Positions 7,265-14,414 of a stretch of DNA of 21,791 bases are shown piece after piece. The notes beneath the pieces are model-generated. The model made no database searches and was not told the DNA's origin. It saw nothing but the letters and a program-made list of their open reading frames with translations. The DNA comes from a virus (lineage: Duplodnaviria; Heunggongvirae; Uroviricota; Caudoviricetes). Both the position numbers and the translations under genes were made by a program. Every line of letters begins with the position of its first letter. The stretch's first letter is position 1. The stretch is taken from IMG/VR virus record IMGVR_UViG_3300029107_000019, one strand, 5' to 3'.

Positions 7265-7710
7265 GCTTTAGCCCTTCTTAGTAAATAGTGTGTAGGGCGA
7301 CTGAAGGACCGAGTTTATGCTTTTTCGCATTGCTTTCAGTTAGTACACCGGTATCGCACCGGAAACAATCCTACGGCAAATTGGTTGTCTGACCTCTCGG
7401 TTTTTCGTGCATTAACCGATACCCACTACAGTCTCGGCGAAAGCTGCACACCCCCAGGGTGTACTGGTAGCACTCGGCACAGCCTAGCACGCCACTTTCT
7501 TCTCACTATCCAGTCTAATTTTATCCCCTAGTCAGACACTCAGATGTAGTGCTCCGCAGCGGCATGCGGGGGAATACAAAAACTCGGACAAAATTGGGTC
7601 CTCCTTTTTGAATCACTCGCGGGGATGTAGTTATTAATGTAGTGGCATAGTGAATTTGGCCACCTGAATAGAGGTGATATCATCACCTCATAGTCAAAAC
7701 AGGTGACATT

Positions 7711-8885
<1,175 letters not shown>

Positions 8886-8984
8886 CCACTACATAATACA
8901 TGGAAAAAGATCTGTTTTCAAATCCAACATTATATGGTTTCAATACCACGGGGTGGCTATGTGTTTCTCATTGTTAATTGGAAT

Positions 8985-9653
8985 CTACTGTAATCGATCC
9001 GAACGTAAATGCGGCAAAACTCGACTCCACTTATCATCCTGCCACGGCCGGAATTTTACATGTGCCGTTTCTCTGGCAAGGATTGCCTGTGCCTTATTGA
9101 GTATCTGGGGATATTCTTGCTCGATAGAAGTGAAGCGACCAGCTTCACGATGCTCCGCAACCTGAAGAAGAGGAGTAACGTTCTGGCAGGCGGTTAACAT
9201 CGCATCCCCAGCTCGCCACAACCAAGCAAGTGTGCAAAGTTCGTTATCAGTGAATTGTTTTATGATTGGGGATTGTTGAACTTCTCGATCGAGAATATCC
9301 AGAACCCAACGGCGGAACTCTTTGGCTACAGGAGTGCGGGCGAACATGGCGATCAAATGGGCTCCGCGGAGAGAGAAAACGCGTACTTTCTTCTTCAAGT
9401 TTCGAGTACTTTTCGAGGTACTCAGATCAAGTACCTCGACATCATTCTCTAAGGTACTGACTTCAAGCACTCTAGTCATACTACTGGAAAATTCGTCAGC
9501 ATATTTGTTGTAAATCATCGTGACTGCGCGACTATTCGAATACTTCAGTGCTCTTGCTAGGTTGGATGAAGTTAGCCATATTCCGGCAATATTTGCCACT
9601 GGCACTAGTGCTTCACCTTGGAAGTTCAGATCTGATGTTGCTACAATACTCAT
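8985..9653 (-). CDS. ant: Antirepressor-like protein (Bro-N/Ant-type), immI-like module
   Basis: N-terminal Bro-N-like motif (FQGEALVPVANIAGIWLTSSNLARAL) and a VRVFSLRGAHLIAMFA...EFRRWVLDIL segment; sits directly downstream of an Arc-like gene as in P22 immI. ATG at 9653 has an AAGGAA RBS; the alternative upstream ATG at 9734 would overlap arc. Confidence 0.6.
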   Translation of the reverse strand: MSIVATSDLNFQGEALVPVANIAGIWLTSSNLARALKYSNSRAVTMIYNKYADEFSSSMTRVLEVSTLENDVEVLDLSTSKSTRNLKKKVRVFSLRGAHLIAMFARTPVAKEFRRWVLDILDREVQQSPIIKQFTDNELCTLAWLWRAGDAMLTACQNVTPLLQVAEHREAGRFTSIEQEYPQILNKAQAILARETAHVKFRPWQDDKWSRVLPHLRSDRLQ

Positions 9654-9723
9654 GTCGATATTTCCTTCGCGGTTATTTTCGATAGAAGCCCCTAAGGTTG
9701 CCGCCAGTGGGGCTTCGCTGTTT

Positions 9724-9882
9724 CTAGCGAGCATGTATCCGTGTTCTAAATTTCAATGCCCATACAAGCGCCTGAACAATAGCTGCGTTCTCAGACATCC
9801 CTTCCTCCTGAGCAATTCGCTTGAATTCATCCTTCACTTTTTGCGGATAGCGAAGGGTAATTTTTACCTCTTTCTTTTCCAT
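9724..9882 (-). CDS. arc: Arc-like ribbon-helix-helix repressor (52 aa)
   Basis: MEKKEVKITLRYPQKVKDEFKRIAQEEGMSENAAIVQALV resembles P22 Arc (N-terminal beta-strand FNLR-type motif plus SxNSxI-type helix); GAGG RBS. Confidence 0.6.
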   Translation of the reverse strand: MEKKEVKITLRYPQKVKDEFKRIAQEEGMSENAAIVQALVWALKFRTRIHAR

Positions 9883-9981
9883 TGACATAACCTCATGAGG
9901 CCACAATGACACCATGAGGCCATAATGCCACCATTGAATTGATGTGGCAATATGGCACCATTCATTTTTTTGGGGGGTTCA
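9883..9981. promoter_or_regulatory. Divergent promoter/operator region between the arc-ant and mnt-like genes (Pant/Pmnt analogue)
   Basis: Perfect 10-bp palindrome CCTCATGAGG (9891-9900) and direct repeats CATGAGGCCA(C/T)AATG(A/C)CACCAT; divergent gene arrangement. Confidence 0.5.
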
Positions 9982-10299
9982 ATGGCTGACAAACAAGTAA
10001 AAGACTACGATAAGTTTAACCTCCGTTTCCCTGATGGGATGCGTGAAGCTATAGCTGAACGAGCCAAACGAAACGGGCGCTCAATGAATTCAGAAATCAT
10101 TCAAATACTCCAAGATGCCATAGAAGGAAGTTCTGAACTATCTAAACGTTTAAATTTAGTTGGGTTTATTCGAGGTGACAGAGAGATACGTGACCTGGAA
10201 GATAATGCAAGCAAACTTGCGTTGTATATCGATCATAGAACACAAGAGTTTAAACAAATTTTATTGGAAGATTTAAAATTACTCCTTAATCATGATTAA
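9982..10299 (+). CDS. mnt: Mnt-like ribbon-helix-helix repressor
   Basis: FNLRFPDGMREAIAERAKRNGRSMNSEIIQILQDAI matches the Arc/Mnt RHH signature; divergent from arc-ant. Start 9982 vs 9952 uncertain. Confidence 0.6.
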   Translation: MADKQVKDYDKFNLRFPDGMREAIAERAKRNGRSMNSEIIQILQDAIEGSSELSKRLNLVGFIRGDREIRDLEDNASKLALYIDHRTQEFKQILLEDLKLLLNHD

Positions 10300-10343
10300 T
10301 GTTAACATTTTCCCAAAATCCAATTGATAGAGGAGTTATTTAT

Positions 10344-10697
10344 ATGCGTATTAAAATCATGCCTCTCCCAAGTACTATCCAAATGAGCCAAAAAAAACGG
10401 ACAACAAGTGCAGCAGTATCCACAACGTTTTTTGGCCCAAATAGTCTTAAACCACAAGGAGATAGCCTTGAAAATACAGCAAAGAAAAACTCTTCAATTT
10501 TGCGAGAAAAAAACTACAGAAAAATTGCTGAAACACTATATAAAACTGGGGTCATAACTATGGCAACATTTGATAGAGAATGTAATTTAGGAGGTAAAGA
10601 CAGAAAGTACTTGCGACATATTTTTTCCCTACTTTTGTCAGAAAAAATCAAATCAAAACAAATCAGAATAACCCGCAAGAAAAAACAGAAGAAATAA
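10344..10697 (+). CDS. Hypothetical lysine-rich basic protein (117 aa), AT-rich accessory gene downstream of mnt
   Basis: ATG at 10344 with GAGGAG Shine-Dalgarno 8 nt upstream; an alternative ATG at 10299 overlaps the mnt stop (TAATG); strongly basic C-terminus (RITRKKKQKK); no family recognised. Confidence 0.5.
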   Translation: MRIKIMPLPSTIQMSQKKRTTSAAVSTTFFGPNSLKPQGDSLENTAKKNSSILREKNYRKIAETLYKTGVITMATFDRECNLGGKDRKYLRHIFSLLLSEKIKSKQIRITRKKKQKK

Positions 10698-10776
10698 AAC
10701 GCCAGCGAAAACTTCTCTTTATTTTCATAAGAAAAGAGCATAATTACCAGTTTTCCATATAATCCATAAGTTATGC

Positions 10777-11070
10777 TTATGCTGTAGTCCTCCCATATAC
10801 CGCCAACACCCGCTTCATCGCGGCACTCTGGCGACACTCCTTAAAAATCAGGTTCGTGCCCACCTTCCCTTCCCGTTCTTCCCTGGTAGCGAACCGGTAA
10901 TACACCGTTCGCCAGACCTTACCATCAATGACTAAGATTCCTGCCCGCGCCATTTTAGCCGCAGCCTGATTTATGCTGGTTACTGTTGCGCCTGTTACCG
11001 CAGCAACGTCCGGCGCACAGAAGCTCTTATACATCCCCAGGTAATGAATAATTGCCTCTTTGCCCGTCAT
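10777..11070 (-). CDS. ren: Ren-like protein
   Basis: 97 aa; matches lambda Ren as I recall it (MTGKEAIIHYLG...); start overlaps the P stop (ATGA). Confidence 0.7.
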   Translation of the reverse strand: MTGKEAIIHYLGMYKSFCAPDVAAVTGATVTSINQAAAKMARAGILVIDGKVWRTVYYRFATREEREGKVGTNLIFKECRQSAAMKRVLAVYGRTTA

Positions 11071-11768
11071 ACACTTGCTCCTTTCAGTCCGAACTTAGCT
11101 TTGATTTCTGCGATCTTCGCCAAAGCCTGTGCACGGTTTAGAGGTCTACCGCCCATGACAGGAAGTTGTTTCACCGGTTCAGGGATCGCTTCACCACGGT
11201 TAATTCGCGCGGTCATACAGGACAGTTCATCGGCAGCCATGCGCCGTAATTCCGCGTCAGTCAACGCATTGGCCCGCATGTTCTGGTACAGGTTGGTAAC
11301 CAGCCAGTAGTGCGCGTTTGATTTCCATGGATAAGACTCTGCATCTGGATACAGGCCACGCTTCCGACAATACTCATAGACCATATCAACCAGCTCGCTG
11401 ACGTTTGGCAGTCCGGCGATAACGGATGCTTCTTCCCGGCACCATGCAACAAACTGCCCGGGTGATGGCAGAAATGGTCGATTCTGCCGACGGGCTACGC
11501 GCATTCCTGCGTTAACCTGTTCCATTGTGGTGATCCCGTTTTCCCGGAAAGCCAGAACCCACTGGCGGCGGATTTCGTTCAGTTCGTTCTGGTCACGGTT
11601 AGCCAGACTCGCCGGGAAAGTTGCCAGTAACTGGCTGAACACACCGTTGATGATCTGCGCTACCTGCTGTACCTGCGGCTTTTCGTCGTACTGTTCCGGC
11701 ATGTTGTTGGCGATCCGGCGCATCTGCTCACGGTCAAAGTTAACCATCTGTGCGGCGATGTTTTTCAT
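11067..11768 (-). CDS. P: Replication protein P (DnaB helicase loader), lambda type
   Basis: 233 aa, essentially identical to lambda P as I recall it (MKNIAAQMVNFDREQMRRIANNMPEQYDEKPQ...AKFGLKGASV). Confidence 0.95.
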   Translation of the reverse strand: MKNIAAQMVNFDREQMRRIANNMPEQYDEKPQVQQVAQIINGVFSQLLATFPASLANRDQNELNEIRRQWVLAFRENGITTMEQVNAGMRVARRQNRPFLPSPGQFVAWCREEASVIAGLPNVSELVDMVYEYCRKRGLYPDAESYPWKSNAHYWLVTNLYQNMRANALTDAELRRMAADELSCMTARINRGEAIPEPVKQLPVMGGRPLNRAQALAKIAEIKAKFGLKGASV

Positions 11769-12694
11769 AGCTCCACCCCGTAAATCCAGTCAGTGTTCGT
11801 CAGGTCGAATTTTGGTTTGCCGGCTGTCACGCCAGCCTGTTGCTTGTTACGGTTGATTTCGAGTTGGGTCCACTTGTCGCGGAGTTTGGCCGGACTTAGC
11901 ACGTTACCGGACCAGAAGTTGTCCTGGCATGCCCAGCGGAACAGCACGCACATGTCGCGGTGGTTACGTCCGTCACGTTCACGCATCAGGCGGATATCGT
12001 TAGCCCACCCTGCAAAATTCGGTTTTCTGGCTGATGGCGCGATGGTCTTCACCATGTCAAACATCCACTCTGCGGCGGTCAGGTCTTCTGCTGTCCCCCA
12101 CTTTCTGCCGCTCTGAATTGCAGCATCTGGTTTCACCACAGGAAGATCCTTTTCTGGTTGGTCAGAGGATTCTCCAGAATTCTCGGACGAAAAAGGTTTT
12201 ATATTGTCTTTTGTTAGTTTGTCTTTTGTGTTTACCTGATTCGGGTAAACGCCTTTACCTGATTTGGGTAAACTTTTCTTACCTGATTCAGGTAAATTTA
12301 CCTCTTTCAGGTAAACTTTATTTTTCTTACCTGATTCGGGTAATGTTGACCATTCACTGACCACATTATTAATACCGATATTCCGCCCGCTCTGAATCAA
12401 AATCCCACGCTTTACCAGAACACTTTTTGTAGCAGAACACTTGTGCGGCAATATCCCGGTCAATTCGGACAGTTGCTCGTTGCTCACCCAATCCAGTTTT
12501 TTATTAAAGCCATATGTTTTGCGCATGACAGCCAGGAAGACCAGAAGCTGGTGCTGTGTTAATCCGGCCAGCATCACAGCTTCCAGCAACTCATTTGCAA
12601 TGCGCGTATAACCATCATCGAGATCTGCCACGCGCGGCTCCTTTTGTGCCGCATCCGGCACAGGAAAATTGAATATCTCAGCAGTGTTTGCCAT
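11765..12694 (-). CDS. O: Replication initiator O (lambdoid O family) containing ori iterons
   Basis: N-terminus MANTAEIFNF...VADLDDGYTRIANELLEA and C-terminus ...WTQLEINRNKQQAGVTAGKPKFDLTNTDWIYGVEL match lambda O domains; GGGAGGA RBS before the ATG at 12694; the ORF-track extension to 12784 is probably untranslated. Confidence 0.9.
   Translation of the reverse strand: MANTAEIFNFPVPDAAQKEPRVADLDDGYTRIANELLEAVMLAGLTQHQLLVFLAVMRKTYGFNKKLDWVSNEQLSELTGILPHKCSATKSVLVKRGILIQSGRNIGINNVVSEWSTLPESGKKNKVYLKEVNLPESGKKSLPKSGKGVYPNQVNTKDKLTKDNIKPFSSENSGESSDQPEKDLPVVKPDAAIQSGRKWGTAEDLTAAEWMFDMVKTIAPSARKPNFAGWANDIRLMRERDGRNHRDMCVLFRWACQDNFWSGNVLSPAKLRDKWTQLEINRNKQQAGVTAGKPKFDLTNTDWIYGVEL
12232..12343. repeat. 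Origin of replication: four ~18-bp iterons (TTACCTGATTYRGGTAAA) within the O gene, with an adjacent AT-rich region at 12195-12230
   Basis: Direct repeats read in the sequence; each iteron is internally palindromic (TACC...GGTA); reflected in the protein as repeated LPESGKK; arrangement as in lambda ori. Confidence 0.85.
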
Positions 12695-12780
12695 AATTCC
12701 TCCCGCAATGAGTGTGTTACGATTTGCACCTGAAAGTCGGTTCTGTTCCCGCAGACCGACTTTCGCCATTTTTGAACCTG

Positions 12781-13320
12781 TCATATTGCCCCCAGCATGG
12801 TGGTTACCATCGCCATCAATGGACCAGCCAGATCCGGGTCCACTCGAAACATCGACACAATGCCTTCACTCATCTCCTTCAGTTTCTGGTGGCGTGGTGC
12901 GTTGAGAATGACCGCCTGCTTTGCCTCACAGAGTTCCTTTTCCATTTCAGCCAGCCGAGCCATGAAGCTATCCTGCTCAACCAGGTGGCCGCGATATTCC
13001 AGCGGTAGTACCGCCAGAATTGCCGGGGTCAGTTCACGCACGTTATTTCGGTATTTTTCAGAATCGAATTTGTTATCGAGGAAGCGGAACAGCTTCTGGC
13101 GTGCACGGCTGACATCATCAGGGAAATCGATAGTGCCGCCGCCCTGCTCCCGATACTCATTCACAATGAGTGTGGCAACGACATCCTGATTATCTTCAGC
13201 CGACCAGGCGCGGACGGCATCACGGATTTTTTCGTGGCCTGGCACCTGTTTTGTTTGAGAACGATTTATCACCGCAGTCGGGCTAAATCCGCTAGTCTGT
13301 TGGTATGTAAGTGGTTGCAT
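12781..13320 (-). CDS. Hypothetical early regulatory protein in the cII position (possibly YdaT-like)
   Basis: 179 aa; AAGGAG RBS; located between cro-like and O; not similar to lambda CII; YdaT-like assignment is from memory and weak. Confidence 0.4.
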   Translation of the reverse strand: MQPLTYQQTSGFSPTAVINRSQTKQVPGHEKIRDAVRAWSAEDNQDVVATLIVNEYREQGGGTIDFPDDVSRARQKLFRFLDNKFDSEKYRNNVRELTPAILAVLPLEYRGHLVEQDSFMARLAEMEKELCEAKQAVILNAPRHQKLKEMSEGIVSMFRVDPDLAGPLMAMVTTMLGAI

Positions 13321-13620: not shown

Positions 13621-13724
13621 AACAACCTCCGTGGTTAATTTGAATCAAGATTAAAACTATGGTTGTTTTTAGTCAACAACCATTTTCGTTTGATGGAATA
13701 AAACCTTGGTTGTACATTTGGACT
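13621..13724. promoter_or_regulatory. OR-like operator with divergent pR/pRM-type promoters
   Basis: Palindrome ATGGTTGTT-N7-AACAACCAT (13659-13683) and further GGTTGT/ACAACC half-sites; the same half-site recurs near the pL-like promoter; cI has no SD, consistent with a leaderless pRM transcript as in lambda. Confidence 0.6.
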
Positions 13725-14414
13725 ATGAAAACAACACTCTCAGAAAGACTTAAAGAAGCCAGATTAGCGCGAGGCCTTACACAAAAGGCGCTTGGGGATT
13801 TGGTCGGGGTTAGCCAAGCTGCTATTCAGAAAATCGAAACAGGGAAAGCTAACCAAACAACTAAAATCGTGGAGATCGCGAACGCTTTGGGTGTGCGCGC
13901 AGAATGGTTATCTTCTGGCGTTGGAAATATGTCAGACAGTACAGTGCAACCAATACAATCAACTGTCAGCCATTCCAAATACTTTAAGATTGACGTTCTT
14001 GATATAGAAGTGAGTGCCGGGCCGGGAGTCATCAACCGTGAATTTGTAGAAGTTCTACGCTCGGTTGAGTACTCGTTTGACGATGCTCGTCACATGTTCG
14101 ATGGCAGGAAGGCGGAAAATATCCGCATCATTAACGTGCGTGGTGACAGCATGTCAGGAACGATCGAACCAGGTGATCTGCTGTTCGTTGATATCACGGT
14201 TAAATCTTTCGACGGTGATGGTATCTATGCGTTTCTGTACGACGACACAGCCCATGTAAAGCGCCTGCAAATGATGAAAGATAAGCTACTGGTTATCTCT
14301 GATAACAAGAGCTACTCACCGTGGGACCCGATCGAGAAAGACGAGATGAACCGGGTGTTCATTTTCGGGAAGGTTATTGGCAGTATGCCGCAGACGTATA
14401 GGAAACACGGATAA
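13725..14414 (+). CDS. cI: CI-type prophage repressor (HTH_XRE N-domain plus LexA-like S24 peptidase C-domain)
   Basis: HTH LTQKALGDLVGVSQAAIQKIETGK; Ala-Gly autocleavage site (EVSAGPG); catalytic Ser (GDSMSGT) and Lys (HVKRLQ). The upstream ATG at 13659 lies in the operator region and is rejected. Confidence 0.85.
   Translation: MKTTLSERLKEARLARGLTQKALGDLVGVSQAAIQKIETGKANQTTKIVEIANALGVRAEWLSSGVGNMSDSTVQPIQSTVSHSKYFKIDVLDIEVSAGPGVINREFVEVLRSVEYSFDDARHMFDGRKAENIRIINVRGDSMSGTIEPGDLLFVDITVKSFDGDGIYAFLYDDTAHVKRLQMMKDKLLVISDNKSYSPWDPIEKDEMNRVFIFGKVIGSMPQTYRKHG

What the first reader, a model, noticed from the sequence alone, without database searches (positions are those of the whole stretch)
10299..10697. 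Lysine-rich basic small protein of unknown function coupled to the mnt-like gene
Directly after the mnt-like stop (an ATG overlaps it as TAATG, and a second ATG at 10344 has a GAGGAG RBS) lies an AT-rich ORF encoding a very basic protein ending RITRKKKQKK, with no recognisable domain. Its composition differs from the surrounding phage core, and it is co-oriented with the immunity repressor, which suggests a lysogen-expressed moron. It could be a nucleic-acid binding effector or a membrane-active toxin-like peptide.
Basis: inference. Interest (0 to 1): 0.45.

Follow-up and report, generated by a model that had tools for sequence, protein, structure and literature searches.

The report
Orphan basic prophage accessory gene
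A real, conserved 117-residue, very basic protein of unknown family sits behind the mnt-like repressor of an antirepressor control module in an E. coli lambdoid prophage; it is an ordinary prophage accessory gene ("moron") whose function is still unknown.

Summary
The ORF is there as described and is a real gene. Comparison with homologues sets its start at the second ATG (10344), giving 117 aa, pI 10.6, net charge +20 and 34% GC.

Homologues 51-63% identical occur in Hafnia and Enterobacter prophages. Against them dN/dS is 0.07-0.12, with synonymous sites saturated.

No Pfam, PHROG, NCBIfam or PADLOC family matches. An exhaustive HMMER search of 1.84 billion representative proteins finds only the protein's own family. 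AlphaFold gives a disordered N-terminal 41 residues, then three helices ending in a polybasic tail. No structural neighbour is significant.

- **In E. coli:** the gene always follows an identical mnt-like gene inside an ant-arc-mnt module between ren and ninB, with no terminator in between.
- **In Hafnia and Enterobacter:** it stands alone, antisense to the lytic genes, at two other prophage positions, behind a positionally conserved promoter-like site.

So it is a mobile accessory cassette that, in E. coli, has been captured into the lysogen-expressed mnt operon.

My best guess is a soluble nucleic-acid-binding protein, probably a truncated helix-turn-helix, that acts in the lysogen. The membrane-toxin and toxin-antitoxin readings are not supported. 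Interest is modest.

The parts
10344..10697 (+). Coding sequence of the 117-aa basic orphan protein (stop included). Residues 1-41 are disordered and carry a conserved FGPxSxxPxGD motif. Helices lie at about 42-67, 73-79 and 85-116, ending in a polybasic tail.
   Evidence: ORF list. Homologues all start MRIK. RefSeq WP_021550620.1 uses the same start. dN/dS is 0.07-0.12. Two AlphaFold models agree.
10330..10335 (+). Shine-Dalgarno GAGGAG, 8 nt before the 10344 ATG.
   Evidence: Sequence. An AGGAG is conserved at the same place in the Hafnia and Enterobacter cassettes.
10299..10343 (+). In-frame 15-codon extension from the TAATG start. Most likely it is the untranslated 44-nt mnt-target spacer (10300-10343).
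   Evidence: It is not conserved outside E. coli. It has no SD. It stays open in the two E. coli haplotypes seen.
9982..10299 (+). mnt-like Arc-family ribbon-helix-helix repressor (105 aa). It is the first gene of the presumed mnt-target operon.
   Evidence: PF03869 Arc, E=6e-20. RefSeq calls it 'Arc family DNA-binding protein'. It is 100% identical in all E. coli loci that carry the target. The N-terminal 46 residues are nearly invariant and the C-terminal half is variable across lineages.
10251..10279 (+). Weak sigma-70-like site (TAAACA-17-TAAAAT, 9/12) inside the mnt 3' end. It could be an internal promoter for the target.
   Evidence: Consensus scan only. The total number of sites does not exceed the shuffles.
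9883..9981 (.). Divergent control region between arc and mnt. It holds tandem 19-nt repeats and an 18-nt inverted repeat (candidate operators) and a Pant-like extended -10 promoter on the minus strand.
   Evidence: Repeats. Promoter-like site at 9950-9922 on the minus strand.
9724..9915 (-). arc-like small ribbon-helix-helix repressor. RefSeq uses the internal start at 9882, giving 52 aa.
   Evidence: PF03869 E=1.4e-4 and phrog_582 'Arc-like repressor'.
8985..9734 (-). Antirepressor (Bro-N plus P22 AR C-terminal domains).
   Evidence: PF10548 E=1.8e-16, PF02498 E=7.6e-9, phrog_245 'anti-repressor Ant' E=2e-61.
10698..10776 (.). AT-rich 79-nt spacer between the convergent stops of the target and ren. 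No canonical intrinsic terminator.
   Evidence: The terminator scan found none here. The fold gives -14 kcal/mol, z=-1.6, which is not significant.
10777..11070 (-). ren, the right-hand boundary of the inserted module. It is followed by P and O on the same strand.
   Evidence: phrog_142 'Ren-like exclusion protein' E=4e-40. RefSeq annotation.

Best explanation
This is a genuine accessory ('moron') gene. It encodes a soluble, extremely basic 117-aa protein that belongs to a tiny orphan family confined to lambdoid prophages of Enterobacterales.

In other genera the gene is a self-contained cassette (promoter, SD, ORF) inserted antisense to lytic genes. In the E. coli lineage that cassette has lost its own promoter region. 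It now sits 44 nt behind an mnt-like repressor gene in an ant-arc-mnt (P22 immI-like, 'ant moron') module between ren and ninB. So it is most likely transcribed with mnt in the lysogen and translated from its own GAGGAG/ATG at 10344.

The protein has a disordered N-terminal tail with a conserved FGPxSxxPxGD motif, which may be a docking peptide. This is followed by a three-helix domain whose last helix runs into a polybasic tail. The most likely activity is binding nucleic acid, through a truncated helix-turn-helix plus the basic tail, to the benefit of the lysogen. That benefit could be interference with incoming phages or modulation of host or prophage gene expression.

Shown: the gene is real, it is under selection, it is mobile, its context is as described, and it has no membrane segment or known domain.

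Inferred: lysogenic expression from Pmnt, nucleic-acid binding, and the biological role.
For: Real gene:
- dN/dS is 0.07-0.12 against Hafnia and Enterobacter, with synonymous sites saturated. The core, residues 46-105, has dN 0.05-0.15.
- Length is conserved at 117-118 aa and the start MRIK is conserved.
- The gene is intact in 33 E. coli sequence variants seen on hundreds of contigs, and in the isolated phage PhiR5_1.

Mobile cassette, three contexts:
- E. coli: ant-arc | mnt-target | ren-P-O.
- Hafnia: alone between the replication genes and ninB, antisense.
- Enterobacter: alone next to xis/int, antisense.

Promoter and operon structure:
- The stand-alone copies share a positionally conserved promoter-like site, xTGAAA-17-TATT(A/C)T, ending 24 nt before the ATG.
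- The window lacks that site and has no terminator between mnt and the target.

Composition and orientation:
- GC is 34% against 50-57% in the flanks.
- Being antisense to lytic genes is described as characteristic of prophage accessory loci (PMC7067206).
- 'Ant morons' of P22-like phages are known to carry mnt plus variable genes of unknown function, and sieA (PMC2629481; PMC10461980).

Protein properties:
- Net charge is +20 to +21 in all three lineages, although the tail sequence itself varies.
- Two independent AlphaFold runs give the same layout: disordered 1-41, then helices at about 42-67, 73-80 and 85/88-116.
- The only recurring sequence resemblance is to the winged-HTH domain of a DtxR-like repressor. 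It is in register with the three predicted helices, at E=0.12 and E=0.96 without the tail.
Against: There are no expression data.

The plus-strand mnt promoter was not picked up by the consensus scan. It is assumed by analogy with P22.

High positive charge is also compatible with RNA or ribosome binding, or with a purely protein-binding role through the conserved N-terminal motif.

Nothing indicates which process is targeted. PADLOC finds no defence-family match.
Confidence: 0.55

Rival explanations
1. A protein-protein effector. The conserved N-terminal FGPxSxxPxGD peptide docks on a host or phage protein, and the helical domain merely scaffolds or oligomerises. Nucleic-acid binding is then incidental.
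For: F30, G31, P32, S34, P37, G39 and D40 are invariant within an otherwise variable, low-pLDDT region. That pattern is typical of short linear motifs. Small soluble prophage proteins that inhibit host machines are well known (own knowledge).
Against: Net charge of +20 and a polybasic tail, conserved in charge but not in sequence, argue for a polyanion ligand. No partner can be named. The motif does not match the clamp-binding or SSB-tip motifs I know (own knowledge, not tested).
Confidence: 0.22
2. The toxin of a toxin-antitoxin-like pair. The upstream ribbon-helix-helix Mnt-like protein serves as antitoxin through its variable C-terminal half.
For: An RHH gene followed closely by a small ORF is the classical type II layout. 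Homology to other E. coli mnt genes breaks inside mnt at about 10119, so the C-terminal half and the target travel together.
Against: Homologues in Hafnia and Enterobacter stand alone. There is only about 90 nt to the next divergent gene and no RHH partner. The Mnt C-terminal half is variable in all lineages, including those with nothing downstream. No toxin or antitoxin family matches in Pfam or PADLOC. The RHH gene is clearly the mnt of a complete ant-arc-mnt module.
Confidence: 0.07
3. A regulator of the immI module itself, for example a cofactor of Mnt or a modulator of antirepressor expression.
For: In E. coli the gene is strictly linked to one identical mnt allele and the ant-arc genes.
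Against: The family exists without any mnt, arc or ant next to it in two other genera. 286 of 291 complete genomes with this type of module lack the gene.
Confidence: 0.08
4. A membrane-active or lytic small peptide.
For: It is small, cationic and prophage-encoded.
Against: No segment approaches transmembrane hydrophobicity: the best 19-residue Kyte-Doolittle mean is 0.19-0.72. There is no signal peptide and GRAVY is -0.75. The amphipathic moment over the long C-terminal helix is low (0.17).
Confidence: 0.03
5. Not a protein gene. On this view it is an AT-rich spacer with a chance ORF, or the function resides in an antisense RNA opposing read-through from ren into arc-ant.
For: The region is AT-rich and antisense to the pR-type operon. 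In P22 the ant moron is reported to affect read-through transcription (PMC2629481).
Against: There is strong purifying selection on the amino-acid sequence while synonymous sites are saturated. The ORF length is improbable by chance (20 of 5000 shuffles). No Rfam family matches.
Confidence: 0.03

Closest known systems
The 'ant moron' / immunity I (immI) region of P22-like phages (mnt, arc, ant, plus sieA, hkcC, orf59a or other unknown genes)
   Same: It has the same three regulators: an Mnt-like and an Arc-like ribbon-helix-helix gene transcribed divergently, with ant behind arc. It is inserted as a block into a phage operon. It also carries a variable extra gene of unknown function on the mnt side, as described for P22, epsilon34 and ST64T (PMC2629481). 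In P22 the mnt-side neighbours include the lysogen-expressed exclusion gene sieA (PMC10461980).
   Different: Here the module lies between ren and ninB of a lambda-like early operon, not in the late operon before the tailspike gene. The extra gene has no similarity to sieA, hkcC or orf59a. It encodes a soluble basic protein, whereas sieA is described as blocking DNA injection. The sar antisense RNA was not looked for.
Morons as defined for lambdoid phages (an autonomous promoter-gene-terminator unit of deviant composition inserted between conserved neighbours)
   Same: It shows deviant GC, antisense orientation and presence/absence polymorphism at three insertion points. The stand-alone copies have a conserved promoter-like site.
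   Different: In this window the cassette has no promoter-like site of its own at the conserved position and no recognisable terminator. It seems to have been absorbed into the mnt transcription unit.
Winged helix-turn-helix repressors of the DtxR/MarR/ArsR type
   Same: The three predicted helices align in register with H1-H2-H3 of the wHTH of PDB 4o5v. The protein is strongly basic.
   Different: The match is not significant (E 0.12-0.96). No beta-wing is predicted, because the third helix continues into a polybasic tail. Fold searches do not retrieve wHTH proteins preferentially.

Membership tests
Phage moron (accessory cassette) | Present or absent between genes that are adjacent in related phages | tested here: met
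   The same mnt-arc-ant module occurs without the gene in O157, O111 and other prophages. Different cargo sits in the same slot in SCU-113. The gene is found at three unrelated prophage positions.
Phage moron (accessory cassette) | Nucleotide composition unlike the surrounding phage genes | tested here: met
   GC is 34% against 50-57% in ren/P/O and 46% for the window.
Phage moron (accessory cassette) | Own promoter and terminator | tested here: inconclusive
   A promoter-like site is conserved in position in the Hafnia and Enterobacter copies, but these are consensus matches only. It is absent at that position in the window. No canonical terminator follows the gene.
Phage moron (accessory cassette) | Expressed from the repressed prophage | not testable with these tools
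   This needs RNA-seq or proteomics of a lysogen. Orientation (same as cI and mnt, antisense to the lytic operon) is only suggestive.
P22 immI-type 'ant moron' | Divergent mnt and arc ribbon-helix-helix genes with ant downstream of arc | tested here: met
   Pfam Arc matches both small genes, and Bro-N plus P22_AR_C match the 249-aa protein. The layout is shown.
P22 immI-type 'ant moron' | Operators in the arc-mnt intergenic region and the sar antisense RNA | tested here: inconclusive
   Tandem and inverted repeats are present at 9887-9961, but binding was not tested. sar was not searched for, and Rfam found nothing in the window.
Type II toxin-antitoxin toxin | Obligate adjacent antitoxin partner across homologues, and a recognisable toxin fold or family | tested here: not met
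   Stand-alone homologues have no partner. There are no Pfam or PADLOC toxin matches.
Helix-turn-helix DNA-binding proteins | Significant sequence or structure match to an HTH family | tested here: inconclusive
SieA-type or other membrane superinfection-exclusion proteins | Membrane-spanning segments or a signal peptide; homology to known Sie proteins | tested here: not met
   The maximum 19-residue hydropathy is 0.19-0.72. There is no PHROG or PADLOC match.
Ribosomal proteins eS17 / bS21 (phage-encoded ribosomal protein idea) | Profile-level similarity | tested here: not met

The most novel reading that the evidence does not exclude
The family could be a new single-gene, cytoplasmic prophage function. 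On this reading it is a small polycationic nucleic-acid-binding protein, delivered as a mobile promoter-ORF cassette, that protects the lysogen against other phages or rewires host transcription. It would have no relationship to any described defence or regulator family. In E. coli it would be placed under the Mnt-controlled lysogenic promoter, so that its dose follows the immI circuit.
Probability: 0.2. Interest if true: 0.55.

Novelty: new member of a known kind. Interest (0 to 1): 0.3.

Why it matters
If the protein proves to have a lysogen phenotype, such as phage exclusion or host regulation, it would add a new, very small orphan family to the catalogue of prophage accessory functions.

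It would also give a clean natural example of a free-standing moron cassette being captured into the Mnt-controlled arm of an antirepressor module.

As it stands, it is one more conserved 'hypothetical protein' in a known hot spot for variable cargo. It is useful mainly as a candidate for functional screens. It also corrects annotation: the start is at 10344, and the phage PhiR5_1 record splits the ORF wrongly.

Tried and rejected
Searches that found no family:
- Pfam, PHROGs, NCBIfam and PADLOC scans of the protein, of all family members and of the helical core alone gave nothing below E about 0.003. Nothing was consistent across members.
- An exhaustive HMMER profile search of 1.84 billion representatives found only its own family. 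The one other hit (E=2.9e-4) matched a low-complexity stretch.
- A scan of GTDB species-representative genomes gave only a 20-residue chance match in a Pirellula MAG.
- A plasmid collection search found no match.
- Rfam on the whole window found nothing.

Structure searches:
- Foldseek against PDB and BFVD gave nothing at E <= 0.001.
- AFDB50 was not available on the machine.

Ideas tested and dropped:
- The bS21 and eS17 ribosomal-protein ideas were rejected by hhalign.
- A search for an intrinsic terminator after the gene found none.

Literature:
- Searches for the protein accession and for phage PhiR5_1 found nothing relevant.

Considered but not pursued:
- Phase variation at the A8, A7 and T6 runs. 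Frameshifted database entries P0012 and P0004 exist, but they are as easily sequencing errors.

Full report
**What is in the sequence.**
The window is a lambdoid prophage of E. coli integrated next to icd.

On the minus strand lie, in order:
- O (11765-12784), P (11067-11768) and ren (10777-11070).
- arc (9724-9915) and an antirepressor (8985-9734).
- An IS3-family element.
- The ninB-ninE-rusA-Q region.

Between ren and arc, two genes lie on the plus strand, the same strand as the S24 cI-like repressor at 13659-14414:
- An Arc/Mnt-family ribbon-helix-helix gene at 9982-10299 (PF03869, E=6e-20).
- The ORF in question.

- The mnt-like stop is TAA at 10297-10299.
- An ATG overlaps it as TAATG at 10299.
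- There is an in-frame ATG at 10344 behind GAGGAG (10330-10335).
- The stop is at 10695-10697.
- The C-terminus reads RITRKKKQKK.

The 117-aa product has pI 10.6 and net charge +20. Its GC is 34%, against 46% for the window and 50-57% for ren/P/O. An open stretch of this length arises in only 20 of 5000 shuffles of the AT-rich interval.

**It is a real gene, and it starts at 10344.**
A word-indexed search of 5.8 billion proteins returned twelve hits:
- Near-identical E. coli sequences.
- Proteins of 117-118 aa from Hafnia paralvei, Enterobacter and metagenomes, 51-63% identical.

All of them start MRIK, which corresponds to the 10344 ATG. RefSeq annotates the same start (WP_021550620.1).

Nei-Gojobori estimates against the Hafnia and Enterobacter genes give dN/dS of 0.07-0.12, with synonymous sites saturated. 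The core, residues 46-105, has dN of only 0.05-0.15.

Within E. coli and E. ruysiae there are 33 sequence variants, almost all 117 aa, on hundreds of contigs. The 15-codon extension from the TAATG start remains open in the two E. coli haplotypes seen. However, it has no SD and no counterpart in other genera.

The isolated phage PhiR5_1 carries the intact gene, although its record splits it into two spurious small ORFs.

**No known family.**
The following searches found nothing:
- Pfam, PHROGs, NCBIfam and PADLOC give no match.
- An exhaustive HMMER profile search of 1.84 billion cluster representatives finds only the family itself.
- GTDB species-representative genomes hold none.
- Plasmids hold none.

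Two AlphaFold2 runs, with the E. coli or the Hafnia protein as target, agree on the layout (mean pLDDT 71 and 72):
- Residues 1-41 are disordered.
- A long helix spans about 42-67.
- A short helix spans 73-80.
- A long helix spans 85/88-116 and ends in the basic tail.

The only recurring lead is the winged helix-turn-helix of a DtxR-like repressor (PDB 4o5v). It aligns in register with the three predicted helices, but at E=0.12, or 0.96 once the basic tail is removed.

Marginal hits to ribosomal protein eS17 and my own idea of bS21 were rejected by profile comparison.

The protein has no hydrophobic segment.

Invariant residues cluster in two places:
- The helical core: LRExN, IAExLYKxGVI, TFDREC, GKDRxYLRHIFSLLLxEK.
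- A short motif in the disordered tail: F30, G31, P32, S34, P37, G39, D40.

**Context: a mobile cassette captured by the mnt operon.**
In every E. coli locus examined the order is ant-arc | mnt-target | ren-P-O. This covers 5 complete genomes, PhiR5_1, 8 IMG/VR contigs and 8 further contigs. The Mnt-like protein is 100% identical in all loci compared by tblastn (L001, L012, L014-L021), while the neighbours further out vary. The module occurs both in this icd-site prophage and in a DLP12-like prophage at argU.

In Hafnia prophages the gene stands alone, antisense, between the replication genes and ninB. Only about 90 nt separate it from the divergent ninB start.

In Enterobacter it stands alone, antisense, next to xis/int or at a prophage edge.

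The stand-alone copies share a promoter-like site at a conserved position, (A/T/G)TGAAA-17-TATT(A/C)T, ending 24 nt before the ATG.

In the window, DNA similarity to those cassettes begins only at the SD. The equivalent upstream position is occupied by the 3' end of mnt. Only 44 nt separate the mnt stop from the target ATG, and no terminator lies between them. A weak internal promoter-like site lies at 10251-10279. No canonical terminator follows the gene.

Conversely, the mnt-arc-ant module is itself mobile and usually has no cargo:
- 291 complete E. coli genomes match its control region and the mnt 5' half. Only 5 of them continue past about 10119 into this mnt allele and the target.
- In O157 and O111 prophages the module sits between tail genes, and in a third strain beside tail/baseplate genes. 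In none of the three does anything follow mnt.
- In SCU-113-like prophages the same slot holds an unrelated 160-aa protein and a GNAT.
- The Mnt N-terminal DNA-binding half is nearly invariant, while the C-terminal half varies in all lineages. The homology break inside mnt is therefore not evidence of a special Mnt-target partnership.

**Interpretation.**
The evidence fits the published picture in two respects:
- The 'ant moron' of P22-like phages is an inserted block carrying mnt, arc and ant plus variable genes of unknown function and, in P22, the exclusion gene sieA (PMC2629481; PMC10461980).
- Accessory loci in general are typically antisense to lytic genes and expressed in lysogeny (PMC7067206).

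I therefore read the ORF as a moron gene that in E. coli is transcribed with mnt in the lysogen. Expression is inferred, not shown.

For mechanism I commit to nucleic-acid binding by a truncated HTH-like three-helix domain plus a polybasic tail. The conserved N-terminal peptide is a possible docking motif. The protein would act on competitors or on host or prophage gene expression. I put about 0.5 on nucleic-acid binding and about 0.9 on 'real accessory gene'.

The rivals are:
- A pure protein-protein effector.
- A toxin-antitoxin toxin. This is disfavoured by partner-less homologues.
- An immI co-regulator. This is disfavoured by homologues without immI.
- A membrane peptide. This is disfavoured because there is no hydrophobic segment.
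- A non-coding or chance ORF. This is refuted by dN/dS.

**Verdict.**
The 'lysogen-expressed moron' interpretation is supported by context. The 'coupled to mnt' feature is lineage-specific. The 'membrane-active toxin' alternative is not supported.

This is a new member of a known kind, an orphan accessory gene in a known variable slot. It is of modest interest until a phenotype is found.

Noticed in passing
window 7637-8894: An IS3-family insertion sequence (about 1258 bp, 27-nt imperfect terminal inverted repeats, orfA 7711-8022 with HTH_Tnp_1, orfB 8058-8885) is inserted just downstream of the antirepressor gene. It is absent at the equivalent place in strain 2017.02.03CC.
   Followed up: partly
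window 9883-9981: The arc-mnt intergenic region contains two tandem 19-nt repeats (9887-9905 and 9906-9924) and an 18-nt inverted repeat (9914-9931 / 9944-9961). It also holds a perfect TTGACA at 9882-9887 on the plus strand and a Pant-like extended -10 promoter on the minus strand (9950-9922). These are candidate Arc/Mnt operators and divergent promoters.
   Followed up: partly
window 9982-10299; L026 3586-3906; L028 3559-3879; L002 5284-5586: The mnt-arc-ant module is itself a mobile block. In O157:H7 and O111 prophages it sits between tail genes L and K, and in strain FDAARGOS_1288 it sits among tail/baseplate genes. The Mnt N-terminal 46 residues are almost invariant, while the C-terminal half (the presumed oligomerisation domain) is hypervariable between lineages.
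   Followed up: partly
L002 5626-6676 (E. coli SCU-113): In otherwise 97%-identical prophages, the slot behind mnt carries a different cargo. It is a 160-aa protein with no Pfam match followed by a convergent GNAT acetyltransferase, with ren truncated.
   Followed up: partly
L012 6001-6354 (Escherichia phage PhiR5_1, PV340545.1): The GenBank record annotates two small ORFs (50 and 46 aa) in other frames or segments instead of the intact 117-aa gene. The DNA is colinear with the window and shows no frameshift.
   Followed up: yes
window 10392-10399, 10505-10511, 10429-10434: Homopolymer runs (A8, A7, T6) lie inside the gene. Frameshifted or truncated database entries exist (P0012 at the T6 run, P0004 near residue 80). 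They may be sequencing errors or occasional pseudogenisation, and phase variation was not tested.
   Followed up: no
window 12781-13320 (-) and 13659-14414 (+): The immunity region uses a YdaT-domain protein in the cII position and an S24/HTH cI-like repressor. Related E. coli loci carry HipA-like kinase genes just beyond cI, which is another lysogen-side cargo slot.
   Followed up: no
L030 and L032 1549-2345: In some E. coli relatives the interval between ant and ninB carries a two-gene insert that includes a weak HEPN-domain protein. It may be a defence or toxin-antitoxin cargo next to the same module.
   Followed up: no
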